A stretch of DNA of 64,000 nucleotides, taken from contig CAVNZM010000012.1 of the NCBI GenBank assembly GCA_963693365.1, positions 9,180,001 through 9,244,000 of the forward strand. The letters are read 5' to 3'. The position numbers and the translations under genes were made by a program. The DNA is from Amoebidium appalachense (taxonomy: Eukaryota; Protista; Ichthyosporea). Positions 23,941-63,245 of the stretch are shown piece after piece; within the stretch, counting starts at the first letter, position 1, and each line of letters starts with the position of its first letter. Below the pieces are notes generated by a model. That model was given only the letters and a program-made list of their open reading frames with translations. It ran no database searches and was not told where the DNA came from.

Positions 23941-24680
23941 GTAAGTTACTATATTTGGGAAAATACAACCGAGATCTGATTGGATGACATATTTAGATAT
24001 TGACACAAACGATAATACGTGTGCGCGAGCTAAGTATGTCAATACGTACACAGATCTAAGATATCGGTGTACACGGAAATAGAAAGGAAAGAAAGAAAGG
24101 AAGAAAGGAAAAGGAAACAAACTACAACAAACTAATAAACAAATATAAAACTCAACTTCTAAGTCTTGCTATGAATCATGGGAAGATGACATCCCCACTC
24201 AAGGGTTGGAAGTTGGGTTCTCGTGAAGTTTGTTGATGTGACTGTTGATGTCAATACTCTCACACATGTAGAAGCAGGTGCCGTGAAGTCACAGTCAAGT
24301 TTCCCCACTCGAGAAGACAACGGAGAAGACTTGAAGGGGCAAGCCGGGGAAGAAAACCAAAACAGAAGAAGCACACAACGACGGTTGCCTCTGAAGACTC
24401 GGAGCATGACGGTAGCCAACGACGATATATAAATATATATAGAAGAAAACAACTAGTGTATGTGTGACGTGTTGGTGGCTATTGATTTATACTGGGGACC
24501 ACCCAGATAAACACAAGGCATGAACATCTTGTGGACTGATTTATAGACTGGTGGTCAACCAGTTAAGACACGGGGAATGAGCATCCCGAGGACTAGGTTT
24601 AGACTGGCAGTCAACCAGCACGCCATGGCTATAGATAATTATTTATACTGGGACGCCATCCCAGTTCGACATATAGATAA

Positions 24681-29963: not shown

Positions 29964-30934
29964 TCAGTCACGAAGACTGAGTGAAGCACGGTGCTGCTCG
30001 TGGGAGGGCCCGGGCAGGGGCTTGGTGAAGATGTCGGCCACGTTGTCTTTGGTGGACACGTAGGTGACGACCACATCCCCACTCTTGATGTAGTCCTTCG
30101 TGTTGTGGTACCGGACGGCAATGTGTTTGGTCCGGTGCTTGATGCTGTTGGTGTGCAGGAGGGCAATGGTGGACTGGTTGTCACAGTAGACGGGGGTGGG
30201 GTCGGTCATTGGGTAATCGAGTTCACGGAGGAGATCACGGTGCCAGATGACGTTTTGAACAGCAGCATTGATGGCCAGAAGCTCAGCCTCGGTGGTGGAT
30301 GTTGCCGTGATGGACTGCAGCTTCGAATACCATGTGATTGGGATGCCTTTGAAGAAGATGACGTATCCGGTGGTTGAACGACGGGTGTTGGGGCAGTTGG
30401 CAAAGTCGGCATCAGAATAACATTCCAGCAAGGGGGTGTTGTCGTCGGATGCAGACTTGTCGTAGTGAAGACCGAGGTTGGAAGTGCCGATGAGGTACCG
30501 AACTACACGGAGTAGACATTCCCATGCAAGTTTGGTGGGGTTGGCACTGAATCTACCGAGGTAGCCGATGGCAAAGGAGATGTCGGGCCGGGAACAACGA
30601 GCAACCCACAATAGACGGCCGAGTAGTTCACGGTAGGGAACCTTGATGGGTGGTGAGTCGTTCTCGTTGATGGTGATGACGGTGCCAACGGGAATGGGAG
30701 TAGCCTTGGGGTGGGCATCGTCGAGGTTGAAGTCTCTGACGATGTCGTTGATGTAGGACTGTTGAAGCAGCTTGAGGTGACCGGGGGTGTGGATGAGCTG
30801 TGTGCCGAGGAAGATGTCGGGGAGGTCGACCTTGCAGAGAGCTGACTTCATGATGTGGTCTACTAGATCCTTGGTGTGGGAAGAGTTGGCCGTGCAGATG
30901 ATGATGATGTCGTCCACATAGTTGCCAGTGAGGA
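29964..30934 (-). pseudogene. Copia-A reverse transcriptase C-half and RNase H
   Basis: Motifs GNYVDD, RPDISFA, YSDADFA, STTEAE, YCDNQS, HRTKHI and ADIFTKPL. Confidence 0.92.
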
Positions 30935-31196
30935 TGTAACATGCCATTCGTGATTCTGGTGCGGTCCGAGCCAGTCAGACCTTCGTCCTATTTAAGCTGT
31001 AAAAACATCTTTTTGGTTCACTTCGTTGATGTGGTATGCAGCGGTAGAACCATATATGGTTCAATTCTTAGGTCAGAGTGAGTCCTATTGGTGCGGACAT
31101 AATATTTATGTGATATTCATGACAAAGCACGAATCGTGTGCTAGTAGATCACATTCTTTAGTAAACATGTACAGTTCATGTGTACAGTTGTTTACA
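30935..31196. mobile_element. Putative 262-bp solo LTR of another family at the copia-A internal deletion junction
   Basis: Bounded by TGTAAC...GTTTACA and AT-rich, unlike the copia coding flanks. The flanks do not form a TSD. Confidence 0.5.
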
Positions 31197-34100
31197 GGTT
31201 GTCCCTGTTACCACGGGGGTAAGGGGAACTTGAACGGGGGCCGGGTGACTTGGAAGACTGACGATGATCACGGGGACGGGACGGGGAGCGGTGAGGTGTA
31301 CTCTCACGGCGAGGGATACGGTTACGGAGGTCACCGGGCGGGAGCATTCTGCTCTGAAGTGCTCGAAGAGGACGGTTGTTGACGGTTGCACCAGTGCCTG
31401 CGTCGATGAGGCCGGCACATTGCGGAAGGTTGATGTACGACGGTTTGTCAGTCATGGTTGAGGCAGTATGTACGGAGGACTTTCGCGGTTGTAACGAGAT
31501 TGTGTGTTAGCGTGCAAAGGGGCCGTAAACCTGTTATTTTGTGTGGGTAAACGGAGAAGCAGAGAGCACAGATGGGTGTTATGTTATACACAACACAGAG
31601 ACACACGGGAGAAACACAACCGGAGAGGTGGAACGGTTTCTGGGACCATAGGAAATGATTTCAACTGCTTCATTTTTATTTCAAGATGAAGTTCCTTTTA
31701 TACCCGGGAATGTGAAATCGATAAGCCAATCAAAAGAACGAAAACTCTTTTATCCAATCAGAAAGACGAAAACTATGAGGGTAAAATAAATCGATCGAAA
31801 TGCCTGTCGACACATAGAAGATAAAACACAATCTTCTAATGAAAGTAATCTTCTAATGAAAGTACGGAAACGTTTAACAAAATGAAACCACTTTTGTATC
31901 TATTAGTTCACATCATATATTTATACATGTTCTTGACATAACACGTCTAAATATAAGTATTCCTAATAGCTGGGGAACATAGAGCAATTCTACGTCGTGG
32001 GAAAAGAAGGAAAAGGAATGAGGATAGAAAGGAATGGAATGGGAAAGGAATGTAGGTTACTATATTTGGGAAAATACAACGAGATCTGATTGGACAACTT
32101 ATTTAGACATTGACGCAAACAACAATACGTGTGCGCGGGCTAAATAGCTCGATGTGTACACAGATCTAAGATATCTGTGCACACGGAAACGGAAAGGAAA
32201 GAAAGAAAGGAAGAGAGGAAAAAGGGAAAAGGAAACGACCAACAACAAACTAATAAACATGTGTAAAACTCAACTTCTAAGTCTTGCCGTTAATCATGGG
32301 TAGATGACACAAACCCCCAACCGCCCTGGCCCGCAACCCGGCCTGGCAAAACCGGTCCGACCCGTGGATCTACCCGCGACACACTGCAGGAATTTCCACA
32401 TTAACGGTCGGTCCTGCGCTAAGCAGCCCTGCCCCTTCTCCCACGTGTGCCCGCTCTGCTCTGGCACACACCCCCGCAAAGACTGCAAGCACAATGCCTA
32501 GTCTACGCGCACACCCACACACACAGATAGAACATAGGGGCTAGGAGCTAGGACACACGGGTACAAGGAAACGGAGCTCGGGAGAACGGGCCAATAGGGC
32601 TGAGTACAAATTTTCGCAGGCCAACTACGGCGCCCGCCCGCGCCAAGAAAAAATGTCCCTACACAAAGACGTTATTCTGGCCACTGCACATAATTTTACT
32701 CCCCCCCCATCCCATGAGCCTCCCCCCCCCCTTACACTCACCTAGCACTCCCTCCCCCCCTTCTTCTACCTCTGTGTCCGCCCACACCCCCGCGTGCCCG
32801 GGCATCCCCTGCACAGGGCCCCGCTGCCCTCCCTGCAAACCCTCCCTCGGGCTCAGCTGCCCTACTCTGACCGCCCCTGGGCCCTGCTGCCCTCCCCCCC
32901 CCCCTCCCCCCCCCTCCCCCCCCTCCCCCCCCCCTCCCCCCCCCCCCCCCCACCCCACCCCCCGCTGCCGGGATCTCCCCGAGGGTGCCCCACCCTTGCT
33001 AACCACACCTTCCCCCGAGGCTCAGACCCGGAGGCCCGCCCGCTTGTTAAATTGTATAAGTATTTGGGATGTAAGCAGAGACACAGTGGTGCAGTGTGAA
33101 AACACCACAGACACACACAACAACAAAACACGGAACGATCGGAGCAGTGTACACAACAGACATCAATGTTTAGACACGACTGAACTGAATTTATTCTGAT
33201 CTTCGAATAAATACCTGAAATTCTTCTAAGTCCAATCCATACATGATTTCCGACCAGTCGGAAATCAGATCTATCTCTAATAGAAACCAATCACTAAGAA
33301 CCAATTGCTTTCAGAGAGATCCGGTACGCGGAGACGTACACGATAGGACACAGACACTAGTTAAGGTCAACTCGTGTCATCATCAAGGAAGTTCTAACCT
33401 ATGACATACTGCAAAGACTCAGACATATCACACTTAACCTTGATGATTGGTTAAAGCCCGGCAACACATGAAAACTAAAGTAAATTAATGAAGTCTAAAC
33501 ACACATGCTATTCTAAGTGTAGCCTAAGTGTGTTACCGTCCAATGAACACGTATTAAGTAACACAAATCTACCTAACATATATTAGTAGAAAAGAAATAC
33601 GATTATACACATGAAGACAAGGAGAGAAAGAAAAGAAAATAAGGAAGGAGAAAGAGGAAGGAAAAGAGAGCACAGATCAACAAACAAGATAGTAATAGCA
33701 TAACTATAGCCAGAGATATTTATGTACACACGAACATGTACACGTCTCTCCCTGAGTGGGTGGATCCGTGTACACACATATAAATATTCTAATCGATATT
33801 ACAACACACGATTAAAGCCGATACAACACGATTACAAGTATACAAGCATATCGGAGATCGATGCTACACTTTACATAATAGGAGTGTGGCATATACACTA
33901 AGCATATGAACTGAAACATAACACAAACTGAGAAGATCTTACCATATGTAAATACTACGTATTACAACATCCCCACTTAAGACTTTGAAGTTTGTGTTAT
34001 CATATCCCCACTGAACTAGTGAAATCTCCCCACTTGAGAACAGAAACGAAAAAAAACAAGAAAAAAAATAAAGTGTGTACTTTTCCGGGGGGGGGGGGGG

Positions 34101-36658
34101 GGGGGGGGAAGGGGGGGGGGGGGGGGAAGGGGGGGGGGGGGGGGGGAGAAGGGGGGAGGGGGGGGGGGGGGGGGGAAAGGGGGGGGGGAAGGGACCGGGG
34201 CAAAAACAACGAATATATATAACGTATATAGTCGGGGTTTGATTAACTGGGTTTTAAACAAGTGAAAGATAGAGTAGAGTCGCGGTACAGGTCAAACCTT
34301 ATATAAAAACCCTAAGTGGGCATACCCACAAAGGCAATATACATATGAAATAATGATTATGATAAAGTAAGAAGTAAACATTAGAAAATCACTCTTGAAG
34401 TAGGACGGGTCAATCCACAATATCCGGCAAACAAAGTCGGGCACGATGGGTGACATGACTCGGGCCGGGGAGGGGTTTGGTGAGGATGTCAGCTAAGTTG
34501 TGGGCTGACTCAACGTAGTGGACAACCACATCCCCACTTGCAATGTAGTCCTTGGTGTTGTGATACCGGACGGCAATGTGTTTGGTACGGTGCTTGATGC
34601 CGGTGGAGTTGACAATGGCAATGGTCGACTGGTTGTCACAGTACACCGGGGTCGGAGCAAGCATGGGGCAGCCGAGTTCCTTGAAGAGGTCACGGACCCA
34701 AGCAACTTCTTGGGTACCAGCATTGAGAGCAATCAGCTCAGCTTCAGTGGTGCTGGTGGCCGTGATGGGCTGGAGCTTGGAGTACCAGATGATGGGCATA
34801 CCAGCAAACTCGATGATGTAGCCGGTGGTAGACTTCTTGCTGTCGGCACAACCAGCAAAGTCAGCATCCGTGTAGCATTCGAGTATGGGGGGCTGGGTGG
34901 CCGAGTACTTGTAGTCAATGCCAAGGTCATGGGTGCCGAGCAGGTACCGGGCCACACGACGGAGAAGGTCCCAGTGAGTCTTGCCGGGGTTGGTGCTGAA
35001 CCGACCAAGGAAGCCGATGGCATAGGCAATGTCGGGACGTGTGCACCGGGCCACCCAGAGGAGACGGCCGAGTAACTCACGGTAGGGCACGGTTGGGGGG
35101 GGCAGTCAGCCAGGGAGACGGTGGTGCCTGCAGGGATGGGGGTAGACTTGGACTTGGCATCGGTGAGGTTGAAGTCGTGGATGATATCCATGATGTAAGA
35201 CCTCTGGTGCATGTGGAGGTGATGGGGATCAGAGTGATTAAAATCAACACCGAGCATACGGTCAAATGGACTCATACGACAGCTGGCCATCTTGCTGATG
35301 TGGGCAGCCAGGTCACTAGCAGCAGTAGAACCCCGGGTGTTGGTGATGGTGGAGTCGTCGACGTAGTTACCAGCCCGAACCACATCGTTGTTGGGGAAGA
35401 ACCGGAGGTAGATGCACGGGTCTGTCTTAGTACGGGTCAGGCCATGGGCAAGAAGAATGCCGTCGAGGAAGTCGTACCAAGCCTTGGAGGCTTGCTTGAG
35501 GCCGTACAGGGCTTTCTTGAGTCTCCAGACCTTGCCAAGTGTGGCCATGGTGATGAATCCCGGGGGTTGTTTCATGTAGATGGTCTCGGTGAGTGGGCTG
35601 TTGAGAAAGGCCGTAGACACGTCGAGTTGATGGATGTCATGACCTTCAACAACGGCCAGAGCTAGGATAGCACGGAGAGCAGCCGGACGGATGACAGGGC
35701 TCTCAATCAACTCATAGTCAACACCGTATTGCTGACTGAAGCCTTGAGCAACACCACGGGCCTTGATCTTGGTGTCACCAGCCGAGTTGAGAGTTTTCTC
35801 GGAGACAATCCACTTGAAGCCGACGATGTTAGCACCAGGGGGAGGGTCAACAAGTTCAAAGATGTCTTTGTCGACGAAGGCTTGATACTCAGCAGTGAGG
35901 GCTGACTTGACCTGGTCACCATTGGGTCCGGAACACAGTTGACGGACAAGTTTGGGTAGTTGGTCGATGTTGATGGGGGGACCGGGGGGGACTGGCAGGG
36001 TGGTGGTGGCTTGAAGTCCAACCTTGCCCTGTAGACGGGCAGAACGACGGGGTACAGGAACCGGGGGAGGTGGAGACGGGGGGGGGGGAACTTGGAAGTT
36101 CGGAATTGCAGGGGGGGCAACCTCCGGGCTGGACGGGGCCGAGTGGAAGTTGTCGGGGGAGCCGGGTCGGATGGGTGTGACGTTGCCAGGGGCAGGATGA
36201 GGGTCGGCAGGCTGGACGGGCACGGGGGCAGGGGGGCCTGTGGGGGGGGGGTGTCGGGGGAACGACGATGGCAGGAGGGGGGCCAGAGTACACCAGACAA
36301 ACATCATCTTCAGTGTCAACTGTGGGGGGTGGGGTGGTCGAGGTAGCAGTGGTGTCGGGGGTCGGAAGTGTTGATGGAATGTCGGACGGGAGATAAGCTG
36401 ATTCGTCAAAAATCACATCACGGAAGAGGCCGACACGATGGGTGGTGGGGTTGAAGATCCGGTGGCAGTGTGATTGAAGATCATAGCCGATATACATGCC
36501 GAGTTTGACGGTGGGGGCCAGCTTGTTCCGTTTAGAGGCTGGCACATGAGTGTAGGCAGGGCAACCGAACACTTTGAGCTCGGAGATGTCGGGCTTGACA
36601 CCGTAGAAAACCTCGAATGGTGTACGACCATTGGTAGTCGTGGACGGGGTGACGTTGA

Positions 36659-43777
<7,119 letters not shown>

Positions 43778-46233
43778 GTTGATGGTGTAGGCGGCATGTT
43801 GAAGGGCCTCAGCCACAGTTTGGGGGACAGAGACTGATCTTGGACTTGATGGAGGAGGCAACGAACAATCTCTTGGAGGAACCGCATACGACGTTCAACA
43901 TAGCCGTTCAGTTGAGGGCAGTCCACCGGAGCATAGCTGGTCTTGATGCCCTGGGAGAGGCAAAAAGCACGGGTAGCCTTGGAGGTGAACTCAGAGCCGG
44001 AGTCGAAGTGGTAGACACCAACTTTGGAGGGGGCATGGGTAGCAACGAGGTTGGTGTGAGCTGTGAGAATGTCCAGGGTGGTTGTACGGTCGGCCATCGG
44101 GTAGATCTTGACGAGTCCAGAGGCACGGCAGACAGTGACGAGAGCAACCTTGGAACCTCCGTACGATGTTGTGGTAGGCTCAAAAAAATCCCAATGCCAT
44201 TCATGACCGGGGATGTTGGAGTGAGGACGGTCACCCTTGAACGGAGCCTTGGTGGTTTTACCCATAATGCAGCCATGACAATCAGGAACATCACAGTCGA
44301 GGACAGACGAGGGGAGACCAATAACAAGGTCGTGCTTCACCATGTCCTTGATGCTGGTCATAGCACGGTGCCCCAGACGATGGTGCCAGATGGAAGGGTT
44401 AACACTGGTAGTGGCAGCCAGAGCCACAGGACGAGTGGGTGGTTGAATGGTGTAGTCCTTGAAGTAATACAGACCGTTGTGTAGACGGAGGTTGACGAGA
44501 TGACGGCCGGTGAGTCGGTCGAAGAGGAATGACGGAGTGGAGGCATCATTCAAATCACCCTTGATGTATTCGGCAGCAGCTTGGGATGTTGAAATGAGGA
44601 AGGCTTGGCCAGACGGGGTGTAGTAGGCTTCAATGGTAAGGGTGGCAGTGCCATGGTCGGTGGTGGTGTTGATGACGATATGGCCGGTGTGGGTGGCCAA
44701 GACGGGGGTGCCATTGAAGGCAGCAACGGGAGTCGGTGTCGGAAGGGGGGTGAGGTCATGGAAGAACTCACGGGTGGGGCAGACAGTCATGTTACACCCG
44801 GAATCCCAGGCAGGGTCGGAGGACACGGGGACGGAGCTAGCATTGTATGCCGAGAAAGCAAAGGAGACAGATTTCTCACTGCCTTGACGGGAACGGTTGT
44901 GTCTGGACATACGGCATTTCGGCTCGGGGCAATCGATGATCGTGTGATCAGGCTCGTGGCAGTAGGAGCATGCTTTCACGGACGGGTTGTTAGAACGAGC
45001 CGGGGAATCAGAACGACGGGAACCCGAGAAACGGGAACGACTGGGGGAACGAGACGTGGACCGGAAGGCAGGCCGGTGGGGGGGAACGGGATCGGGTGTG
45101 CTGACAGGAGAGACGAGTTCGGAGGTCCGTGCTAGGGGTACGGTCAAGTCGGTTGCGTAAGTCACGGCGAGGAAGATCACGGGGGGGAGCACTAGCATTT
45201 AATGCCATGCTGGACTTGGAGGCACGGTGGGCACGGTTGCTCCGGAGTTGCATCTTGAGGTCTTGGCGTAGCTCGATGCCCTTGACGTAGTTGTGGAGGG
45301 ACTCGAAGTCGGGGAATAGATTATCACCGAAGTGATAGTCTTCGATAAGACGGTTGAACTCAGGGGTGAGGTCGTCTCTGGTGGTGAGTTCATTGAAGAA
45401 CTTCTCAGCTAGACGAGTGAAGTGAATGGACTCGTCTTGGAGGGACTGGAGCTGGTTCACGATGGTCTGCAGACGACTCAGGTAGGTGGTGAATGATTCA
45501 CCGGGCTGAAGGGCACAGGCATCCCACTGACGGTGAAGGATGCGGATCTGATAGGGTTTGCCTTGGAGGTAGTGTTGACGGAATTTCCACATGGCCCGTT
45601 CAGGGTCCATGCCAATACGGTACTGGGCAACGGTGGTGAGGACGGAAGGGTCGATGTTCTGAATCATATGGAGCAGGAGGCAATTGCGGGCCTCCTTGAG
45701 TTCCGCGGTAGTGCCGTAGCCGTAGAAGGGGGATTCACCGTCAACCGCGACGGTGGTAGGGGGGACGTAGTTGTCAGCAAGTACAACATCCACGAGTCGG
45801 ACACCTTTAGTGCCGGTCATCATGCCGAGAAAAATGATTTCCCATTGAAAATAGGTGGTTTTGCTATCGGGACCAGTCTTCCCTTCACCTTTCCACATGG
45901 TTATTTTGTTTACACCAGTTTTGTTTGGATCCATGATTGAAAAACGATCGCTAGTTTTAGAGGTGTGTAGGGAGCGTGCAAAAGGGCTGCATAACCTGTT
46001 AAATTGTATAAGTATTTGGGATGTAAGCAGAGACACAGTGGTGCAGTGTGAAAACACCACAGACACACACAACAACAAAACACGGAACGATCGGAGCAGT
46101 GTACACAACAGACATCAATGTTTAGACACGACTGAACTGAATTTATTCTGATCTTCGAATAAATACCTGAAATTCTTCTAAGTCCAATCCATACATGATT
46201 TCCGACCAGTCGGAAATCAGATCTATCTCTAAT

Positions 46234-48948
<2,715 letters not shown>

Positions 48949-51900
48949 ATAGAAACCAATCACTAAGAACTAATTGCCCCCACCCCCCGCTGCCGGGATC
49001 TCCCCGAGGGTGCCCCACCCTTGCTAACCACACCTTCCCCCGAGGCTCAGACCCGGAGGCCCGCCCGCTTGTTAAATTGTATAAGTATTTGGGATGTAAG
49101 CAGAGACACAGTGGTGCAGTGTGAAAACACCACAGACACACACAACAACAAAACACGGAACGATCGGAGCAGTGTACACAACAGACATCAATGTTTAGAC
49201 ACGACTGAACTGAATTTATTCTGATCTTCGAATAAATACCTGAAATTCTTCTAAGTCCAATCCATACATGATTTCCGACCAGTCGGAAATCAGATCTATC
49301 TCTAATAGAAACCAATCACTAAGAACCAATTGCTTTCAGAGAGATCCGGTACGCGGAGACGTACACGATAGGACACAGACACTAGTTAAGGTCAACTCGT
49401 GTCATCATCAAGGAAGTTCTAACCTATGACATACTGCAAAGACTCAGACATATCACACTTAACCTTGATGATTGGTTAAAGCCCGGCAACACATGAAAAC
49501 TAAAGTAAATTAATGAAGTCTAAAAAGTGTGTTACCGTCCAATGAACACGTATTAAGTAACACAAATCTACCTAACATATATTAGTAGAAAAGAAATACG
49601 ATTATACACATGAAGACAAGGAGAGAAAGAAAAGAAAATAAGGAAGGAGAAAGAGGAAGGAAAAGAGAGCACAGATCAACAAACAAGATAGTAATAGCAT
49701 AACTATAGCCAGAGATATTTATGTACACACGAACATGTACACGTCTCTCCCTGAGTGGGTGGATCCGTGTACACACATATAAATATTCTAATCGATATTA
49801 CAACACACGATTAAAGCCGATACAACACGATTACAAGTATACAAGCATATCGGAGATCGATGCTACACTTTACATAATAGGAGTGTGGCATATACACTAA
49901 GCATATGAACTGAAACATAACACAAACTGAGAAGATCTTACCATATGTAAATACTACGTATTACAACACCGCTGCCCCAGCACCACATTGACACCTGCCG
50001 CCTCCGGGAGCTGCTGGCCTCCTACCCAGACCAATCATTCGCCGCGCAGCTCCTCCACGATGTCGAATTCGGTGTCGCCATCGGCTACCGCGGCCCCTCC
50101 ACCTCTCGGGTGGGCCCCAACCTACCCACCACCCCGGCTGCTGCTGCCGCTATCACGGCGGATATTGCCAACGAAGTCGCCCTCGGCCACCTGCGCGGCC
50201 CCCTCTCCCCGGACCAATTCTTCGCCGAATTTCCGGTCCACCGTTCCTCCCCCATCGGCGCCTTTACTAAAGAAGGGGACCCCCACAAGTACCGTCGAAT
50301 CCACCACCTCTCATGGCCCCGGGGCAGCAGCGTCAATGACAGCGTCACCTACCGGCCCGATGAACTTCAGTACATTCGAGCCCGGGACGTCACCCAGCTC
50401 ATTCTCGACGCAGGCCCCGGCTGCTACATGGCCGTGGCAGACGTGCAGGCTGCCTTCCGGCACATGCCCATCCGACCAGAAGACCATCACTTAATGGCAT
50501 TCAAATGGCAGGGGCATTTTTACGTTGACACCCGACTGCCCTTCGGCCTGAAATCTACTAGCCCAGCCATCTGGGAACGGATCGCGGCCACCCTCCAGTG
50601 GCTGGCACACCAGCACGGTGTTACCCTCATCCGCCACTACGTAGACGACTGGATTACAGTCGCCCCCACCCAAGAGCAGTGCCAAGGTCACCTATCCACC
50701 TTCCTGCAACTCTGCCGAGAGCTGCACATTGCCATCTCCGAAGACAAGATGCAGGGCCCGGCTACCCGTATTGTCTTCATCGGTATCGAATTCGACTCCG
50801 TCACCATGGAGGCACGGATCCCTGCTTCCAAACTCTCGGACCTACTCGACCTCACTTCCCACCCAACACCCACCATCACCATTCGGGAATTGCAATCCCT
50901 CCTCGGAAAACTCACCTGATGTGCCCAGCTGGTCCCCCCCGGGCGGGCCTTCTCCCAGCGCCTATGGGCCCTTCTCCGAAAACACCCACACCTTGCCGGG
51001 CACCACCACATACGGCTGTCTGCTGCCGCCCAGGCAGACATAACCGAATGGCACCAGTTCCTCATCATGGAATGGGGTGCACCTTATCACCCCCCCCACA
51101 TACACCACCCTGGCCACCGATGCTGCCGGATCCGTGGGTCTAGGGGGCCACTGGCTCGACCAATGGATTTTCATGCCCTGGTCTCCCTCCACCCAAGCCC
51201 TCTATGCTCATGAGGGTAAACTCGGTTCCTCCGTCATCGAACTCTTGGCCATCGCAGCCGCCGTGGCCCTCTGGGCCCCCTCCTGGTCCACCCACCATGT
51301 CCGTATTTTATGCGACAACACGGGTGCTGTGTCTGACCTGCACTCCCGGTCTTCCCCCCACCCCGTGATGGCCAAACTTATTCGGTTCATCACCCGCATG
51401 GAAATGCAATAGCAATTTACGTTACAGGCCTCCTACCTACCGGGACCCCTCAACCATCTAGCCGATGCCATTTCTCGTAACCAACTTCCCCGAGCCCGAC
51501 GACTCCGACCTTCCCTGCAACCGGAGCCCTGCCCCTTCCCCTCCTGGGTCCACGAGTTCCTATCCTATCCCCTGGGCTATTAGTAACACCCCCCCCCCCC
51601 CCCCCCCCCAGATCTCCCCTTCCGGAGCAACGCCGGCAGATTGGCCCCCCACTTTGCTCCGGCCGAGCTGCTTCGAGCCACCACTACCCTGCAGGAATGC
51701 CAGGCCCTGAGTCTCAACCTCGACTCTTGGGCCTTTTACTCCCGGGTGCAAAAAGTGTTCATCGATTTTTGTGTGGCATCTCGGCTGCAGTCCTCCTCCG
51801 GGTCCTACCTCCCGGCCTCCCCACACACCGTGCAGCTCTTTCTCGCCTGGTGTGCCCAACGAGGGGTACAGGCCTCTTCCTTGGCCGGCTACAATTCGGC

Positions 51901-54103
51901 CATCACCAGACTCCACCTCGACATGGGCCTCCCTGCTCCCTACCCCCCACGACAAGTCTCTGGCCTGATTCCTCCGAGGGGTGGGCAGATGGCAGCTTTC
52001 TCACAACATCCGGCCCCGATCATCTACCAGGGAGCCCCTCCTGCCCTCCCACCTCAGCCTACTCCATGGCCAGTGCCCCACCAAGGCCTCCTCGGCCAAT
52101 CTCCGGCTATGGACGGTCCTCATCGTCGGTTTTTGTGGTCTCCTCCGTTCGAGGGAATTTACCTCCAAGACCCTGTCTTCCTTCAACCCGTCCCGTCACG
52201 TTAAAAGGAAGGACGTGACCTTCAGCTACACCCCCACCGGTACTTTGTCCCATGCCACCCTCCACCTGCCAACCTCCAAGACGGATGTACAGGCCCGAGG
52301 TGTCAATGTCACTCTAGCTGCCCTGCCCCTCACCCACTTCTCCCCAGCCCATCTCCTCCGGCAGTTCCTGGATACAACGTCCGGTCAACCCAACGACCCC
52401 CTGTTCAGTCTCGGTGGCATTCCCTACACCAAGGGTGCTTTCTCTGCCGACTTCCGTGCTCTCCTCTCCCGGGCAGGCCTCTCACCCTCCAGGTTTGCCG
52501 GCCACAGCCTCCGAATCGGGGGGGCCACAGCCCTGGCTGAGGCCGGGGTCGACAACTCCCAGATCAAACAACTCGGCCGATGGTCCTCCAACTGTTTCCT
52601 GATCTATACTCCGAGTCGACTTCGCCCGGCCTCCATTGCTGCCACTACCACACGTGTATTCGCCTCTATTCTTAAGTGAAACCTTTGGAGCAAGCATACT
52701 GCTCTCGTGCCGTGGTTTACAACCATTGCAGGTTCACTTTCGTCCAAGGGGATGTCCCCCTAGAGGCAACACACGTCCCGGAGTAGTTTTTCATAGAGGT
52801 TTTATTTGTGGAATTTATTGACATAAATATTTTTTCTGGGTAAACACGTAGGATGGGTGTTCGGTACCAACATAACCATGTAGGCTTCATTTCGTGTTTT
52901 AACAGTTCGCGGTTGGCTGCCCGCACACGGGCACCTATTAGCCAATCAAAACATCAGATTCCACATATCACTAGACCGAATTTTGATTGGCTCGGATCAG
53001 ATTTCACATATCACTAGATCAATTTTGATTGGCTCAGATCGGTAGGCTTGGGTATATAAGCACAGTTTTTAGCAGATCAGCAAGCTCCAAACACATCTTC
53101 TGTGTTTAGCACCCACAGCCTTACAGCTATAGATTCCTTTTCACCCCCCCACACCACCCCCATTGATCCACACATACGTGCTGTTTTTTCACGGGGCGAA
53201 GACTTCCCCCGTTTTTTGGGCACAAGGACCTCACGGATCAATAAATTGATGACTGGGGGCTTGCCGTGGTTTACAACCATTGCAGGTTCACTTTCGCCCA
53301 AGGGGATGTCCCCCTCGAGGCAACACACGTTCCGAAGTAGTTTTTCATAGACGACCCAGAATCCACAATTATACAGCCATTCGGCCTATTCCGAACACAA
53401 TAAGTTCAGGAATCGAAAGTAGGCTCCTGTATGCCGTACTGTGTGTCATGTGTGGGGGTGTGTGTGTGCTTGGCGGGAGTGTATGAGGGGGTGTGTGAGC
53501 TTGTGTGTGGGTGTGGGTTTGGGTGCACCTGTGTTTGTGCATTTGTGTGTGGGTGTGCGTCTGTGTGGGTGGGTGCACGTGTATGTGATCACGTGTGGGT
53601 GAGCGCACCAGTGTTTTGAGTACGGTTGGGTGGCCAGGTGTTAATGGATATGTCGGGGCAGGATGAGCCTCTGAGGGGCAGGGGCGGGGGAGAGCGGGAA
53701 GGGTGTTTTGTTGTGTAGGTTGTGTTTGTGTGTATGTGTGATGTGTGTGTGTGTGATGTGTGTGTGTTGTGTGTGGAGAGGGATTTGTGTGTGTGTGTGT
53801 GTGTGTTGTGTGCATGCAGTGTGTGGAGTGAAGACGAGTGAGATGTGCGATGGATGGGACACTTGTGTGTAGGATGGAGAAGTTGGAAGGGACATTACTC
53901 TGGTACCCGACTTTTGTTCACGGTCTCCATGCATCCTTCCGCGGGGAGGTGGGCCGGGAGGGGGGGGGGGGGGGGGTGAATGGTTCTTCTCACCGGCACT
54001 GATTAAGTTAATGTTATTTATCTGTAAACTGTCCGACTTGAGAAGAGAGGGAGGGGAGGTAGGTAGGGGCAGGAGAGGGCAGGTGGTTCGGGTGTGCGTC
54101 TGT

Positions 54104-54134
<31 letters not shown>

Positions 54135-55499
54135 GGGGGGGGGCATGGGTGAAAGGGGAGTGTGGGTTGTGAGGATTGGGATGGGTACTTTGCCGACACA
54201 CATACAGCTGCAGTGGCTATGAAAGGAGAATGTAGAGGGTACGTGTGTGAGTACGAATGTGTGAATGTGTGTAAAACAATGCATGGTTGAATGTGTTGCG
54301 CAAACTACCAAGTGGACATTGATTTGCGCATGTGTCGCATCCATATGGGTAGTCCTGTAGTAAACTGGCCTGCCTGCCTGCCTGCTTTCAACATCCCGTT
54401 GTGTGTGTGTGTCACGTGTTGCTCTCTCTGCTTTGGTGTGGATTCTAAACTAGTGAGACAGTCATTGAATCCCCCCCCCCCCCTCCCCCCTCGAACGTAA
54501 CACCTCTGTGTTTTGATGTGAAACAAGACATTTAGGGATTTGTACGGGATTGATAACAAAAGTCTTAGCACAGTGTAGGACGGGATTTTGGCGCGATAAC
54601 AAAAGTCTTAACACAGTGTAGGATGGTTACACAAGTTTGGCACAGTGTAGGATGGTTACACACGTGGTTACACACGTTTAGCACAGTGTAGGATGGTTGC
54701 AGGATAGTACACACGTTTAGCACAGTATAGGTGTTATTTTGTGTGGGTAAACGGAGAAGCAGAGAGCACAGATGGGTGTTATGATATACACAACACAGAG
54801 ACACACGGGAGAAATACAACCGGAGAGGTGGAACGATTTCTGGGACCATAGGAAATGAATTCAACTGCTTGATATTTATTTCAAGATGAAGTTCCTTTTA
54901 TACTCAGGAATGTGAAATCGATAATAAATGCTAAGCCAATCAAAAGAACGAAAACTCTTCTATCCAATCAGAAATACGAAAACTATGAGGGTAAAATAAA
55001 TCGATAGAAATACCTGTCGACACATAGAAGATAAAACACAATCTTCTAATGAAAGTAATCTTCTAATAAAAGTACCGAAACATTTAACAAAATGAAACCA
55101 CTTATGTATGATATTAGTTCGGTTTTATTTGTGGAAATTATTGACATAAATATTTTTCTGGGTAAACACGTAGGATGGGTGTTCGATACCAACATAACCA
55201 TGTAGGCTTCATTTCGTGTTTTAGCAGTTAGCGGTTGGCTGCCCGCACACGGGCACCTATTAGCCAATCAAAACATCAGATACCACAGATCACTAGACCG
55301 AGTTATGATTGGCTCGGATCAGATTTCACATATCACTAGATCGATTTTGATTGGCTCAGATCGGTAGGCTTAGGTATATAAGCACGACAGTTTTTAGCAG
55401 ATCAGCAAGCTACAAACACATCTTCTGTGTTTAGCATCCACAGCCTTACAGCTATATATTCCTTTTCATTCCTCCCTATCTTTCCCTACGCCGGTCAGC

Positions 55500-56669
55500 A
55501 TGCCGCCGAAAAAGCGACAGGCCTCAGCCGCCACCCCTGCCGCGGCACCTAAGCGCCTGACCCGCAGCGACCTCCGCCACAGGCTGACCAACGCTCCCGC
55601 GGACACTGACGCGCCTCCAGCGGCCCATACCACCACGGACCCGGACCCGCCGGCTACTCTCCCCTCCACTCCTGAAGTCCCCCCTCAGGCCCCGCCGTCC
55701 CCGCAGATGACTTCTCAAGACGCCGTCCTTGCCGCCCTCACCGCCATCAGCACCCAGATGGCTGGCGTCCTGGCTGCTCTCACCAACCGCGACCCTCCCG
55801 CGCCCCCCGCCGCGCCCTCCACACCCGGGGAGGTTTCCCCGGGGCTGCATCTCGGCCCTGACCTAGACCTACCTGCCCTGCCCGCGCCCCCCATCACAGG
55901 TGAGAACACTGGCGACATTCAGCCGGGCACACTCCCGCTTCCCCCCGCGGATGTGCTGGCAGATTTGCACGCCAATCGTTTCGTCGACCTGTATAAGTTC
56001 ACCCCCGCCGCCCTCCTGGCCCCATCCAAGAAAGGTCAGCATCTGCGCATGGCCGACGACGGCAGCATCGAGACTTTTCGCCAAGACAAACCCGTTCCCC
56101 TGCGTTCACTCGTCATTTGGATCCAAGCTTGGACCCATTACATGGCCGCCAAGCACCACCTCGGCCTCCCCACGGACAAAGACGTACTTTGGACTCAGCA
56201 CATCACTCGCCTCAGCACCCGATACCCGTGGGCCCAGATCCACAACTATGACGTATACGCCCGCACCGTTGCCCACCAGCAGGGTCGGGCTCCGATCGAG
56301 TGTCCCAACCTGCTCGCCCAACTCCACCAGGATCTCCTCCTGCCACCCACTCTGCTCATCCCGGACGCATGTCAGCGCTGTGGCTTCCCCGACCACCCCA
56401 GCGCGGCCTGCCCCATGTACCCCAAGCCCGGCTGTGGTCTTGACGGCTTTAAGCCGCCCCACAAGCCCGGCGGGGGTCAAACCCCTAACCGCCTTGGCCC
56501 GCAACCCGGCCCGGCAAAACCGGCCCGACCCGTGGATCTACCCGCCACGCACTGCAGGAATTTCCACATTAACGGTCGGTCCTGCGCTAAGCAGCCCTGC
56601 CCCTTCTCCCACGTGTGCCCGCTCTGCTCTGGCACACACCCCCGCAAAGACTGCAAGCACAATGCCTAG
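55500..56669 (+). CDS. Ngaro Gag-like ORF1 with C-terminal zinc fingers
   Basis: 389-aa ORF with CQRCGFPDHPSAAC and CRNFH...C...CPFSHVCPLCSGTHPRKDC. Confidence 0.88.
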   Translation: MPPKKRQASAATPAAAPKRLTRSDLRHRLTNAPADTDAPPAAHTTTDPDPPATLPSTPEVPPQAPPSPQMTSQDAVLAALTAISTQMAGVLAALTNRDPPAPPAAPSTPGEVSPGLHLGPDLDLPALPAPPITGENTGDIQPGTLPLPPADVLADLHANRFVDLYKFTPAALLAPSKKGQHLRMADDGSIETFRQDKPVPLRSLVIWIQAWTHYMAAKHHLGLPTDKDVLWTQHITRLSTRYPWAQIHNYDVYARTVAHQQGRAPIECPNLLAQLHQDLLLPPTLLIPDACQRCGFPDHPSAACPMYPKPGCGLDGFKPPHKPGGGQTPNRLGPQPGPAKPARPVDLPATHCRNFHINGRSCAKQPCPFSHVCPLCSGTHPRKDCKHNA

Positions 56670-56923
56670 TCTACGCGCACACCCACACACACAGCTAGAA
56701 CATAGGGGTTAGGAGCTAGGACACACGAGTACAGGGAAACGGAGCTCGGGAGAACGGGCCAATAGGGCTGAGTACAAAATTTCGCAGGCCAACTACGGCG
56801 CCCGCGCGCGTCACGAATAAATGTCCCTACACAAAGACGTTTATTCTGGCCACTGCACATAATTTTACTCCCCCCCCTCATCCCACGAGCCTCCCCCCCC
56901 CCCCCCCCCTTACACTCACCTAG

Positions 56924-57073
56924 CACTCCCTCCCCCCCCCTTCTTCTACCTCTGTGTCCGCCCACACCCCCGCGTGCTCGGGCACATTCCCCTGCACAGG
57001 GCCCCGCTGCCCTCCCTGCCAACCCTCACTTGGGCCCAGCTGCCCTACTCGAACCCCCCGGGGCCCTGCTGCC

Positions 57074-57111
<38 letters not shown>

Positions 57112-58794
57112 CTGCCGGGATCTCCCCAAGGGTGCCCCATCCTTGCTAACCACCCCTTCCCCCGAGGCTCAGACCCGGAGGCCCGCCCGCTGCCCCAGCA
57201 CCACATTGACACCTCCCGCCTCCGGGAACTGCTGGCCTCCTACCCAGACCAATCATTCGCCGCACAACTCCTCCACGATGTCGAATTCGGCGTCGACATC
57301 GGCTATCGCGGCCCCTCCACCTCTCGGGTGGGCCCCAACCTACCCACCACCCCGGAGGCAGCTGCCGCTATCACGGCGGATATTGCCAAAGAAGTCGCCC
57401 TCGGCCACCTGCGCGGCCCCCTCTCCCCGGCCCAATTCTTTGACGAATTTCCGGTCCACCGTTCCTCCCCCATCGGCGCCGTTACCAAGAAAGGGAACCC
57501 TCCCAAGTACCGTCGAATCCACCACCTCTCCTGGCCCCGGGGTAGCAGTGTCAATGACAGCATCACCTACCCCGACGAACTTCAGTACATTCGCGCCCGG
57601 GATGTCACCCAGCTCATTCTCGACGGAGGCCCCGGCTGCTACATGGCCGTGGCAGATGTGCAGGCTGCCTTCCGGCACATGCCCATCCGACCAGAAGACC
57701 ACCACTTAATGGCATTCAAATGGCAGGGGCATTTTTACGTTGAAACCAGACTGCCCTTCGGCCTGAAATCTAGCCCAGCCATCTGGGAACGGATCGCGGC
57801 CACCCTACAGTGGCTGGCACACCAGCACGGTATTACCCTCATCCGCCACTACGTAGACGACTGGATTATAGTCGCCCCCACACAAGAGCAGTGCCAACGT
57901 CACCTATCCATCTTCCTGCAACTCTGCCGAGAGCTGCACATTGCCATCTCCGAAGACAAGATGCAGGGCCCGGCTACCCGTGTCGTCTTCATCGGTATCG
58001 AATTCGACTCCATCGCCATGGAGGCACGAATCCCGGCTTCCAAGCTCTCGGACCTACTCGACCTCACTTCCCACCCAAAGCCCACCATCACCATTCGGGA
58101 CCTCCAGTCCCTCCTCGGCAAACTCACCTGGTGTGCCCAGCTGGTTCCCCCCGGGAGGGCCTTCTCCCAGCGCCAATGGGCCCTTCTCCGGACCCACCCA
58201 CACCTGGCCGGCCACCACCACATACGACTGACTGCTGCCGCCCGGGCCGACATAGCCGAATGGCACCAGTTCCTCACATCATGGAATGGGGTGCACCTCA
58301 TCATACCACCCACATACACCACCCTGGCCACCGATGCTGCCGGATCGGTGGGTCTAGGAGGCCACTGGCTCGACCAATGGTTCTTCATGCCCTGGTCCCC
58401 CTCCACCCAAGCCCTCTATGCTCATGAGGGTAAACTCGGTTCTTCCGTCATCGAACTCCTGGCCATCGCAGCCGCCGTGGCCCTCTGGGCCCCCTCCTGG
58501 TCCACCCACCATGTCCGTATTTTATGCGACAACACGGGTGCTGTGTCTGACCTGCACTCCCGGTCTTCCCCCCACCCCGTGATGGCCAAACTTATTCGGT
58601 TCATCACCCGCATGGAAATGCAATACCAATTTACGTTACAGGCATCCTACCTACCAGGACCCCTCAACCATCTGGCCGATGCCATTTCTCGTAACCAACT
58701 TCCCCGGGCCCGACGACTCCGACCTTCCCTGCAACCGGAGCCCTGCCCCTTCCCCTCCTGGGTCCACGAGTTCCTATCCCTTCCCTTGGGCTAA
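56924..58794 (+). CDS. Ngaro RT/RNase H (start uncertain)
   Basis: KYRRIHHLSWP, DVQAAFRH, RLPFGLKSSP and YVDD; RNase H motifs ATDAAG, IELLAI, CDN and ADAISR. Confidence 0.9.
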
Positions 58795-58812
58795 CCCCCC
58801 CCCCCCCCCCAG

Positions 58813-59873
58813 ATCTCCCGTTCCGGAGCAACACTGGCAGATTGGCCCCCCACTTTGCTCCGGCCGAGCTGCTTCGAGCCACCACTACCCTGCAGGAATG
58901 CCAGGCCCTGAGTCTCAACCTCGACTCTCGGGCCTTTTACTCCCGGGTGCAAAAAGTGGTCATCGATTTCTGTGTGGCATCTCGGCTGCAATCCTCCTCC
59001 GGGTCCTCCCTCCCGGCCTCCCCACACACCGTGCAACTTTTTCTCGCCTGGTGTGCCCAACGAGGGGTACAGGCCTCTTCCTTAACCGGCTACAATTCGG
59101 CCATCACCAGGCTCCACCTCGACATGGGCCTCCCTGCTCCCTACCCCCACGACAAGTCTCTGGCCTGGTTCCTACGGGGGGTGGGCAGATGGCAGCTTTC
59201 TCACAACATCCGACCCCGCTCATCCACCAGGGCACCCCTCCTGCCCTCCCACCTCAGCCTACTCCATGGCCAGTGCCCCACCAAGGCCTCCTCGGCCAAT
59301 CTCCGGCTATGGACGGCCCTCATCGTCGGTTTCTGTGGTCTCCTCCGTTCAGGGGAATTTACCTCCAAGACCCTGACTTCTTTCGACCCGTCCCGTCACG
59401 TTAAACGGAAGGACGTGACCTTCAGCTACACCTCCACCGGTACTTTGTCCCATGCCACCCTTCACCTGCCAACCTTTAAGACGGATGTACAGGCCCGAGG
59501 TGTCAACGTCACCCTAGCTGCCCTGCCCCTCACCCACTTCTCCCCAGCCCATCTCCTCCGGCAGTTCCTGGATACAACGTCCGGTCAACCCGACGACCCC
59601 CTCTTCAGTCTCGGTGGCATCCCCTACACCAAGAGTGCTTTCTCTGCCGATTTCCGTGCCCTCCTCTCCCGGGCAGGCCTCTCACCCTCCCGGTTTGCCG
59701 GACACAGCCTCCGCATCGGGGGGGCCACAGCACTGGCTGAGGCCGGGGTCGACGACTCCCGGATCAAACAACTCGGCAGGTGGTCCTCCGACTGCTTCCT
59801 GATCTATACCCGACTTCGTCCGGCCTCCATTGCTGCCACCACCACACGTGTATTCGCCTCTATTCTTAAGTGA
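58813..59873 (+). CDS. Ngaro tyrosine recombinase (start uncertain)
   Basis: Catalytic set present: GLLRSGE (R), FKTD (K), HSLRIGGAT (HxxR), GRW and LIY. Confidence 0.92.
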
Positions 59874-61476
59874 AACCTTTGGAGCAAGCATACTGCTCTC
59901 GTGCCGTGGTTTACAACCATTGCAGGTTCACTTTCGTCCAAGGGGATGTCCCCCTAGAGGCAACACACGTCCCGGAGTATTTTTCATAGAGGTTTTATTT
60001 GTGGAAATTATTGACATAAATATTTTTCTGGGTAAACACGTAGGATGGGTGTTCGATACCAACATAACCATGTAGGCTTCATTTCGTGTTTTAGCAGTTA
60101 GCGGTTGGCTGCCCGCACACGGGCACCTATTAGCCAATCAAAACATCAGATACCACAGATCACTAGACCGAGTTATGATTGGCTCGGATCAGATTTCACA
60201 TATCACTAGATCGATTTTGATTGGCTCAGATCGGTAGGCTTAGGTATATAAGCACGACAGTTTTTAGCAGATCAGCAAGCTACAAACACATCTTCTGTGT
60301 TTAGCATCCACAGCCTTACAGCTATATATTCCTTTTCACCCACCCACCTACACCCACACTCAACCCCCATTGATCCACACATACGTGCTGTTTTTTCACG
60401 GGGCGAAGACACTCCCCGTTTTTTGGGCACATGGACCTCACGGATCAATAAATTGATGGCTGGGGCCTTGCCGTGGTTTACAACCATTGCAGGTTCACTT
60501 TCGTCCAAGGGGATGTCCCCCTAGAGGCAACACACGTCCCGGAGTAGTTTTCATAGAACATCATATATTTATACATGTTCTTAACACAACCGTCTAAATA
60601 TAAGTATTCCTAATAGTTGGGGAACATAGATTAATTCTACGTCATGGGAAAAGAGGAAAAGAAATGGGAATTAATGAGGAATGTAGGTTACTATATTTGG
60701 GAAAATATAACGAGATCTGATTGGATGACTTATTTAGATATTGACGCAAACAACAATACGTGTGCGCGGGCTAAATAGCTCAATGTGTACACAGATCTAA
60801 GATATCTGTGCACACGGGACCGGAAAGGAAAGAAAGAAAGGAAGAAAGGAATAGGGAAAAGGAAACAAACTACAACAAACTAATAATGATGTGTAAAACT
60901 CAACTTCTAAGTCTTGCCGTTAATCATGGGAAGATGACAATAGGATGGTTACACGTGTGTAACTATCCTACACTGTGCTGGCCTACACTGTGCTAGCACA
61001 CTGTGCTGTGTGTGTAACCATCCTACAAACTCGTGCTGGCCTACACTGTGCTAACACACTGTGCTGTGTGTGACACGTAACCATCCTACAAACTCGTATC
61101 AAGGGCATAACATTTACTCAAACGCTTGTCCCAGGCACCTATTTGCCCAGCACTCGCACGCACACACACCGTCTTGCACACACACATTGACACGCACATA
61201 CACACAGATCAAGCACATCCACGCGGCGCTCAAACGGGCCCAAGAGCTCAAGGACAGCAAGAGCTCAAGGACAAAGGACTGATCCGTGTTTGCTGTCAAG
61301 TGCCTCAGCCTTCCCGATGGTCAGAAATCCGTTTAAGATTCGTGCAAAACCATTTATGTTCTTCTGTCACGTTACCAGTCTTGGCTGCCTAACACGTGCA
61401 AACATTTTTGTTCTTCTGTCACGCTACCAGGCTCGGGTGCCTAACACGTGACACAACATAAGTGGGCATGTTGCAT

Positions 61477-62279
61477 TGTCATCTTCCCATGATTCATAGC
61501 AAGACTTAGAAGTTGAGTTTTATATTTGTTTATTAGTTTGTTGTAGTTTGTTTCCTTTTCCTTTCTTCCTTTCTTTCTTTCCTTTCTGTTTCCGTGTACA
61601 CCGATATCTTAGATCTGTGTACGTATCGACATACTTAGCTCGCGCACACGTATTGTCGTTTGTGTCAATATCTAAATATGTCATCCAATCAGATCTCGTT
61701 TGTATTTTCCCAAATATAGTAACTTACATTCCTTTCCCATTCCTTTCTCACGACGTAGCATTGTGCTATATTCTCCAACTATTAGGAATAATTATATTTA
61801 GACGTGTTATGATAAGAACATGTATAAATGTATGATGTGAACTAATAGTTACATAAGTGGTTTCATTTTGTTAAATGTTTCCGTGCTTTTATTAGAAGTT
61901 TCTTTCATTAGAGGATTGCATTTTATATTCTATGTGTCGACAGACATTTCGGGTCGATATATTTTACACTCATAGTTTTCGTCTTTCTGATTGAAAATAG
62001 AGTTTTCGTTCTTTTGATTGGTTTATCGTTTTCACATTCCCAAGTATAAAAGGGACTTCATCTTGAAATAAATCTCAAGCAGTCGTATTCATTTCCTATG
62101 GCCCCAGAAATCGTTCCACCTCTCCGGTTGTGTTTCTCCCGTGCCCTCTGTGTTGTGTATAACATAACACCCATCTGTGCTCCCTGCTTCTCCGTTTACC
62201 CACACAAAACGACAGGTTATGGGCCCAGCACGCTTCCACTGCGCCACTCTGCTTCTCCGTTTACCCACACAAAACAACA
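61477..62279 (+). mobile_element. Aberrant solo LTR-A: LTR, then a tRNA-primer copy, then a repeated LTR end
   Basis: LTR at 61477-62214, second LTR terminus ending AACAACA at 62279, and TSD TGCAT at 61472-61476 and 62280-62284. Confidence 0.92.
62215..62253 (-). pseudogene. Retro-copy of the 5' 39 nt of initiator tRNA-Met
   Basis: The minus strand reads AGCAGAGTGGCGCAGTGGAAGCGTGCTGGGCCCATAACC, which is metazoan-type tRNAiMet nt 1-39 including the CAT anticodon. Confidence 0.93.
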
Positions 62280-62294
62280 TGCATCGGGTCACTG

Positions 62295-63245
62295 TAGGTA
62301 CCTAAACTCAGCACTTACAGCCCTCATGCATCCCCTCATGCATCCATTTTGGTACCTAAACTCAGCACTTACAGCTCTCATGCATCCATTTTATATGTGC
62401 AAATATATCTCATTACATTGTATACGCTACGTATACAATAATATTTGGCATCATGCCTATATATAGCATCAATGCCCATATATATATAATTCTAGCGTAT
62501 ACGCTAATACTTGGCATCATGCCTGTATATAGCATCAATGCTCATATACATTAAATTCTACGGCAGGCACATGTGAACTTGTCTTGCGCACCAAAAAACA
62601 AAGAGCCGTATACTGGGCAATACAGCCCTCACTATGTAAAATACGCACCAAAAAACAAAGAGCCGTATACTGGGCAATACAGCCCTCACTATGTAAAATA
62701 CACAGTTACCTAACAGTTACCTATTACACGGTGACCAGTTCCCGAACAGTTACCTAATACACAGTTACCTAACGGTTACCTTATAAGGCAATGGTTACGC
62801 AATAAGGAAATGAGGACTTATGGTGCCGATGCCTAGTATTTACAGTTGTTAAAATCATACATCGGCTAGTATTTACCGTTGTTAAAATCATTGTTAAAAT
62901 CATCGAAGCCGTCGAAGTCAGCCCCACCGTAGCTTTGGTCGGAAGCTGTATGGATATGAAGAGAGCTCTGTAAGTATGCAAGCCCAAACCATTCCGAGGT
63001 TGTAAACTTACTGCAAACTTTTCCACACGCACATGTGTGTGGGTATATCCATATGTTTCTTCTGTACCTTCAACAAAAAAACCACTGTACCTTCACTAAA
63101 AAACCATTGTGCACGTGTGCTTGTAAGTGATGGGCACGTGTGCTTGTGAGTGTGTGGGTATATCCATATGTTCCTTCAACAAAAAACCATTGCACATGTG
63201 TGCTTGTGAGTGATGCGCACATGTGCTTGTGAGTGATCAGTGATC
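62295..63245. repeat. Series of short tandem duplications
   Basis: Paired blocks GGTACCTAAACTCAGCACTTACAGC, TTGGCATCATGCCT(A/G)TATATAGCATCAATGC and CGCACCAAAAAACAAAGAGCCG...GTAAAATA, plus ACAGTTACCTAA repeats. Confidence 0.75.

What the first reader, a model, noticed from the sequence alone, without database searches (positions are those of the whole stretch)
61472..62284. Fossil reverse-transcription intermediate: an LTR that copied its entire half-tRNA primer and still integrated
Seen within one TGCAT TSD: a complete LTR-A, the exact complement of tRNAiMet nt 39 to 1, and then the last 26 bp of the LTR again, joined through CTCTGCT shared by the tRNA 5' end and U5. The family's own PBS is mismatched, so this copy came from the tRNA itself. 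Inference: plus-strand strong-stop synthesis read to the primer's 5' end, jumped back into U5 and rebuilt an integrase end. It supports priming by tRNA cleaved after nt 39, as in Drosophila copia, and shows a recombination-free route to solo LTRs.
Basis: partly seen in the sequence, partly recalled or inferred. Interest (0 to 1): 0.85.

Follow-up and report, generated by a model that had tools for sequence, protein, structure and literature searches.

The report
Retrotransposon scar holding its tRNA primer
One end-repeat of a copia jumping gene sits in this chromosome joined to a DNA copy of the front half of a transfer RNA, likely a copying accident that still integrated, and three related elements nearby are predicted to grip that half-tRNA along almost its whole length, which would explain where the accident rejoined.

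Summary
Confirmed: TGCAT duplication, a 738-bp copia LTR, 39 nt complementary to the 5' half of a eukaryotic initiator-type tRNA, then the LTR's last 26 nt (one mismatch). The family's own PBS is degenerate, in the window and in a high-depth contig, so the 39-mer likely came from the primer. A contig from another organism label shows the same kind of junction with two substitutions (ortholog or separate event). New here: the 7-nt overlap is not chance. Three diverged copia families in the window each carry a U5 box predicted to pair with tRNA nt 1-18, plus a split PBS for nt 20-39 (33-34 of 39 nt paired). Best reading (0.7): the first plus-strand product, a dead end in Ty1/Ty3, copied the primer past nt 9, re-primed at this box and gained a second integrase end. 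Caveats: only nt 39 to 8 are provably tRNA-derived; the host tRNA gene was not seen; 28-32-nt PBSs are ordinary in other copia (21 of 24 metagenome loci); half-tRNA priming is known; the solo-LTR route rests on one non-clean example. The scan noted a similar scar in an anther-smut genome (e1-7164490, unchecked).

The parts
61472..61476 (+). left target-site duplication TGCAT
   Evidence: family TSD length 5 confirmed on the split solo copy
61477..62214 (+). complete copia LTR of family A (738 bp), no PPT before it
   Evidence: alignment to three other copies; flank check
62171..62188 (+). U5 box of this LTR, predicted to pair with tRNA nt 1-18; one substitution against the family copies
   Evidence: duplex -21.2 kcal/mol, 21 of 1786 background tiles as good
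62215..62253 (+). complement of nt 39 to 1 of an initiator-type tRNA-Met; nt 39-8 are tRNA-specific, nt 7-1 are shared with the family U5 box
   Evidence: Rfam no match
62254..62279 (+). second copy of the last 26 nt of the LTR, ending in CA (25 of 26 identical to the copy's own LTR end)
62280..62284 (+). right target-site duplication TGCAT
31509..31575 (-). reference site, family A 5' LTR end: U5 box (31558-31575), 26-nt spacer, degenerate split PBS (31509-31531)
   Evidence: 33 of 39 tRNA nt predicted paired; read-derived contig spans it
37565..37631 (+). reference site, family B: U5 box (37565-37581), 25-nt spacer, split PBS (37607-37631)
   Evidence: 34 of 39 paired
45973..46041 (-). reference site, family C: U5 box (46026-46041), 29-nt spacer, split PBS (45973-45996)
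   Evidence: 34 of 39 paired

Best explanation
This is a single copia LTR followed by a copy of a half-tRNA and a repeat of the LTR's last 26 nt, all inside one 5-bp duplication, and it is likely a dead-end plus-strand reverse-transcription product that was rescued and integrated. Shown: the anatomy, the degenerate family PBS, the conserved U5 box. Inferred steps: (1) the element RNA binds a 39-nt initiator tRNA half in two blocks, nt 20-39 at the split PBS and nt 1-18 at a U5 box 25-29 nt upstream of the LTR end; (2) the first plus strand, primed at the PPT, copied U3-R-U5 and ran through the attached primer past nt 9 towards nt 1; (3) it was displaced, as in Ty1/Ty3, and could not use the mismatched PBS; (4) its 3' end, by design a match to the U5 box, annealed to minus-strand DNA at that box and was extended 26 nt to the primer-free LTR end; (5) a minus-strand strong-stop molecule copied the rest back to the U3 start, giving two CA ends that integrase inserted. 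If that was one molecule with a 65-nt loop, replication would also have given a sister clean solo LTR.
For: Precise ends and TSD. No PPT on the left and no internal sequence. The family PBS is degenerate in the window and is spanned by the X9 contig. The tail length equals the distance from the box to the LTR end, 26 nt. U5 box energies are -25.1 to -25.6 kcal/mol in families A, B and C, with 3 of 1786 window tiles as good and 2-6 of 2000 shuffled primers as good. LTR similarity of C to A and to B is confined to this region. Ty1/Ty3 make a tRNA-extended first plus strand that is displaced, accumulates, and does not pass on the PBS (PMC5371799 section 2.2). Run X8 (another organism label) has a contig joining LTR tail, box, 12 tRNA-like letters and the D-arm box at depth 25.6 (table 5c). 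Long tRNA matches are common in copia: 21 of 24 metagenome loci match 28-32 nt, and 9 of the 14 downstream ORFs scanned hit copia gag.
Against: The host tRNA gene was not seen and Rfam found nothing. The copy's own U5 box has a substitution, leaving 5 nt of perfect overlap, and two changes in its last 33 nt (rough P about 0.03); this needs a second template or later mutation. None of 24 metagenome loci matches beyond 32 nt or has the tail, which suggests copying usually stops near nt 8-12 (a modified G9 is recalled, not tested). The X8 junction differs at two tRNA positions and cannot be told apart as ortholog or separate event. Contigs like human DNA are dropped by the read tool, so a subfamily with a perfect long PBS could be hidden. 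The three families share ancestry, so they are not independent samples.
Confidence: 0.7

Rival explanations
1. Minus-strand route: synthesis from one primer stopped after 26 nt at the 5' end of a tRNA half bound to the U5 box, and that short DNA became joined or bridged (ligation or end-to-end template jump) to a tRNA-primed strong-stop DNA. The plus strand then copied LTR, tRNA and tail in one pass.
For: The predicted geometry puts tRNA nt 1 exactly 26 nt ahead of the primer 3' end in family A, and the minus strand of the locus reads tail-tRNA-LTR. It needs no perfect overlap with the copy's own mutated box and allows the tail to come from another RNA (tail mismatch).
Against: It needs a DNA-to-RNA join or a homology-free jump, for which I have no precedent from the papers read. 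The product is identical to that of the best explanation, which uses known steps.
Confidence: 0.13
2. A full-length element whose PBS had been refreshed to a perfect 39-mer inserted here, and its interior was later deleted through the 7-nt overlap with the 3' LTR's U5.
For: Long perfect PBSs exist in other copia. The tail differs by one base from the first LTR, as two aged LTRs might (P about 0.34). The read tool could hide perfect-PBS contigs.
Against: It needs two rare events. The family PBS seen is degenerate. No metagenome PBS exceeded 32 nt (0 of 24). A plus strand ending in tRNA nt 1-19 has no partner in the leader from which to continue.
Confidence: 0.12
3. Not a reverse-transcription product: a tRNA gene fragment captured during DNA repair at a solo LTR, or an assembly error.
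For: The junctions in the window were not checked against reads directly. No host genome was available.
Against: The fragment starts exactly at the hemivirus priming position, directly at the LTR end, in the primer orientation. The TSD lies outside the tail. A like junction stands in a read-derived contig of run X8.
Confidence: 0.05

Closest known systems
Half-tRNA priming of hemiviruses (Drosophila copia, Ty5, Osser, 1731); plant Osser/Bryco/Gymco-II; rust-fungal Copia and Helenus
   Same: Primer is the 5' part of initiator tRNA-Met ending at standard position 40 (PMC1181622 passages; PMC6317226 passages; PMC10886601 section 3.6); 5-bp TSD.
   Different: Here the primer itself is fossilised in the chromosome, the family PBS is mismatched around the anticodon, and a second binding block lies inside U5.
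Ty1/Ty3 dead-end first plus-strand strong-stop DNA
   Same: The plus strand runs into the tRNA, the PBS is not inherited, and the product is displaced (PMC5371799 section 2.2).
   Different: Ty3 copies 12 nt of an intact tRNA and the product is a dead end; here at least 32 nt of a half-tRNA were copied and the product integrated.
Bipartite PBSs of Ty1, Ty3 and Drosophila gypsy
   Same: The tRNA is bound at two separate sites of the element RNA (PMC5371799 passages; PMC1635307 abstract).
   Different: Those use intact tRNAs, with the second site near the PBS or at the RNA's 3' end; here the second site binds the 5' end of a half-tRNA and lies in the path of minus-strand synthesis.
Candida albicans Tca/gamma elements with extensive match to an internal part of tRNA-Arg
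   Same: Extended pairing with a tRNA fragment (PMC4139406 passages).
   Different: A different tRNA; no U5 block is mentioned in the passages seen.
Ordinary solo LTR
   Same: One LTR inside a TSD; normally formed by LTR-LTR recombination (PMC7175516 passages).
   Different: 65 extra nt (tRNA copy plus tail) lie inside the TSD.

Membership tests
Ty1/copia (Pseudoviridae), family A | LTRs TG...CA with 5-bp TSD | tested here: met
Ty1/copia (Pseudoviridae), family A | copia-type RT between the LTRs and PPT before the 3' LTR | tested here: met
   RVT_2 at 29967-30974, E 2e-9; PPT before 24191
Ty1/copia (Pseudoviridae), family A | PR-INT-RT-RH order | tested here: inconclusive
   family A copy is internally deleted; the order is seen in family B
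Hemivirus-type half-tRNA priming | PBS directly after the LTR, complementary to the anticodon arm and ending at position 40 | tested here: met
   degenerate but anchored at nt 36-39 in families A, B, C
Hemivirus-type half-tRNA priming | cleaved tRNA shown to be the primer in particles | not testable with these tools
   needs small-RNA or particle data
Hemivirus-type half-tRNA priming | phylogenetic placement with named hemiviruses | not tested
   best RT hits of family B were at most 39% identical and mostly unnamed
eukaryotic initiator tRNA-Met 5' half | A1, CAT anticodon, three G in the anticodon stem, D stem | tested here: met
   (hallmarks recalled)
eukaryotic initiator tRNA-Met 5' half | match to Rfam tRNA model | tested here: not met
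   0 matches at E<=5; a half molecule lacks the acceptor and T arms
eukaryotic initiator tRNA-Met 5' half | identity to the host's own gene | not testable with these tools
   no genome held
solo LTR by recombination | TSD directly on both LTR ends | tested here: not met
   65 nt lie between LTR end and right TSD
two-LTR circle junction with tRNA insert | tRNA copy followed by the U3 start of a second LTR | tested here: not met
   it is followed by the U5 tail
TRIM / Helenus | two full LTRs with PBS and PPT, several copies; tRNA-like promoter inside the LTR | tested here: not met
   no PPT, second LTR only 26 nt, one copy in the window

The most novel reading that the evidence does not exclude
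A lineage of copia elements binds the whole initiator half-tRNA in a permuted two-part site, with the tRNA's 5' end clamped in U5 in place of its own acceptor partner, 25-29 nt ahead of the growing strand. The clamp both prepares the primer (freeing the 3' half for cleavage) and acts as a built-in landing pad that regularly rescues tRNA-extended plus strands into integrable mini-cDNAs, so that a real share of solo LTRs arises at insertion without recombination.
Probability: 0.25. Interest if true: 0.8.

Novelty: new variant of a known kind. Interest (0 to 1): 0.55.

Why it matters
[quoted passage not shown] It also points to a testable design for half-tRNA priming: which part of the element RNA holds the tRNA's 5' end, and whether that drives the cut at position 40, a question left open since the copia and Ty5 work. 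If integrable LTR-only cDNAs are common, solo-to-full ratios overstate recombination loss. As a single accident it has no likely function for the host.

Tried and rejected
No whole genome, so no genome-wide count and no host tRNA gene. ARAGORN found 0 tRNAs in the window; Rfam found 0 in 61400-62400. No RNA holder was listed among 24 runs; this says nothing on expression. No empty-site copy of the flanks exists in the window. In 24 metagenome loci: 0 with a direct repeat of the LTR end after the PBS, 1 (L006) with an inverted one; the exact 7-nt U5 box in 2 of 24, so the box is not general among long-PBS copia. Those loci were selected by a pattern that demands 23 matching nt, and 3 pairs are duplicates (21 distinct). 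Family D (TRIM-like) has no significant U5 box (270 of 1786 tiles as good). Whole-molecule cofolding gave only one of the two blocks per family, because nested folding cannot show both. The RT homolog search did not place the host. Ke et al. 1999 is not held. Ten paper searches listed no paper whose title or abstract start describes an integrated LTR-half-tRNA-tail product or a U5 box for a half-tRNA; the library lacks most older papers, so this is weak. Rejected: two-LTR junction, TRIM, Helenus, chance.

Full report
Observation. The structure is as described: TGCAT at 61472-61476, an LTR at 61477-62214, 39 nt at 62215-62253, a 26-nt repeat of the LTR end at 62254-62279, TGCAT at 62280-62284. 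The LTR aligns with three other copies in the window. Family A is copia: an RVT_2 hit lies between its LTRs at 31532-32309 and 23941-24191, a PPT precedes the 3' stub, and a split solo copy has a 5-bp duplication. The target LTR has no PPT before it. The reverse complement of the 39-mer has A1, a D stem, the GG pair, three G in the anticodon stem and a CAT anticodon. I read it as the 5' half of a eukaryotic initiator tRNA from recalled hallmarks; Rfam did not call it and no host genome is held. By the anticodon's index, the 39th nucleotide is standard position 40, the hemivirus priming site (PMC1181622, passages; copia's 5' half primer is also noted in PMC10275265, passage).

Is the 39-mer the family's normal PBS? 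The family A copy at 31531 has a PBS with mismatches around the anticodon and a 4-nt insert. Laying four runs on that copy gave, in X9, a 453-nt contig at depth 68.3 from 31424 to 31717, across the PBS; none of the listed differences falls in 31509-31531. However, 74 substitution rows and 16 indel rows were not shown and the tool drops human-like contigs, so a perfect-PBS subfamily is not excluded. In X8, a different organism label, a contig joins 31564 back to 31509 with 12 letters between, at depth 25.6, near the lowest depths listed for that run. These letters are tRNA nt 8-19 with G9 and G12 read as A. So LTR tail, box and tRNA body are joined in read-derived data too. Whether this is the same insertion with two later C-to-T changes or a second event cannot be told.

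The overlap is not chance. Families A, B and C, whose LTRs are otherwise little alike, all carry a box 26, 25 and 29 nt before the LTR end. Predicted duplexes with tRNA nt 1-18 are -25.1, -25.6 and -25.1 kcal/mol; 3 of 1786 background tiles and 6, 3 and 2 of 2000 shuffled primers do as well. Downstream, a split PBS pairs with nt 20-39. In all, 33, 34 and 34 of 39 nt are paired, with G:U at G12 in all three and nt 19 free in all three. Departures opposite G that keep G:U fit selection on RNA-RNA pairing (inference). The families are related, so this is conservation, not three independent origins. The TRIM-like family D has a perfect 14-nt PBS and no such box.

Wider context. One metagenome scan for an LTR end followed by 23 nt of tRNA complement gave 24 loci (21 distinct). 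Allowing the position-16 variant, 21 of 24 match 28-32 nt and none more. Of the 14 with a downstream ORF, 9 hit copia gag. So long matches to the half-tRNA are ordinary in some copia, and they end near nt 8-12. None has the tail. Two, L004 and L015, have the U5 box 27 and 30 nt before the LTR end.

Mechanism. In Ty1 and Ty3 the first plus strand runs into the tRNA, is displaced, accumulates as a dead end, and the PBS is not inherited (PMC5371799, section 2.2 read). A PBS that stays degenerate in three families fits the same scheme (inference). A plus strand that copied the half-tRNA to near nt 1 ends in a match to the U5 box: 7 nt with the family copies, 5 nt with its own LTR. Annealing there on primer-free minus DNA and extending to the end adds exactly 26 nt. 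The left end needs a second minus strand, because the original one continues past the PPT; a minus strong-stop DNA copying the displaced plus strand supplies it. Both ends then read CA and integrate, which the TSD outside the tail shows. Confidence 0.7. What is provably tRNA-derived is nt 39 to 8, so nt 9 was crossed correctly; the last seven are ambiguous. Rivals: a minus-strand join at the point where synthesis meets the bound tRNA 5' end (0.13; same product), deletion of a full-length element with a refreshed PBS (0.12), repair capture or assembly error (0.05).

Comparison. It works like hemivirus priming plus the Ty1/Ty3 dead-end strand. Half-tRNA PBSs are known in plants and rust fungi (PMC6317226 passages; PMC10886601 section 3.6; ICTV profile PMC8515867 whole text). 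Two-part PBSs are known for intact tRNAs (abstract only for gypsy), and extended matches to a tRNA-Arg fragment in Candida (PMC4139406 passages). Ten searches showed no description of this integrated product or of a U5 box for the half-tRNA, but the key older papers are not held, and supplements were not read.

Verdict. The solo-LTR claim remains speculative. New variant of a known kind; interest 0.55.

Noticed in passing
window 26431-29165: Tandem array of about 740-bp TRIM-like units (family D), each LTR followed by one extra G and a perfect 14-nt half-tRNA PBS; an inverted fragment follows at 29164-29460.
   Followed up: partly
window 33045-46236: Copia B (36659-43777, LTRs 95.8% identical, TSD GTTGA, two long ORFs) nested in opposite orientation inside copia C (240-bp LTR matches, 99.6%).
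   Followed up: partly
window 49969-53351 and 55121-60557: Two related elements with RT and tyrosine-recombinase hits (DIRS/Ngaro-like); one splits a solo LTR-A (54732-60939, TSD CCTAT).
   Followed up: no
window 45997-46236, 33045-33284, 49070-49309: The LTR-C copy at 49070 shares both flanks with the copy at 33045, so it is part of a larger duplicated block rather than an independent solo LTR.
   Followed up: no
L001-L024: Copia PBSs of 28-32 nt matching the initiator half-tRNA are common in metagenomes and track a T/C variant at tRNA position 16; lengths end near nt 8-12.
   Followed up: partly
L006:1453-1613: LTR end plus PBS folded back as an inverted repeat, a possible fold-back intermediate or an amplification chimera.
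   Followed up: no
L013:92-131: PBS matches 36 of 39 positions of the window's 39-mer and may be a full-length copy of that host's own tRNA half; no copia gag hit downstream.
   Followed up: partly
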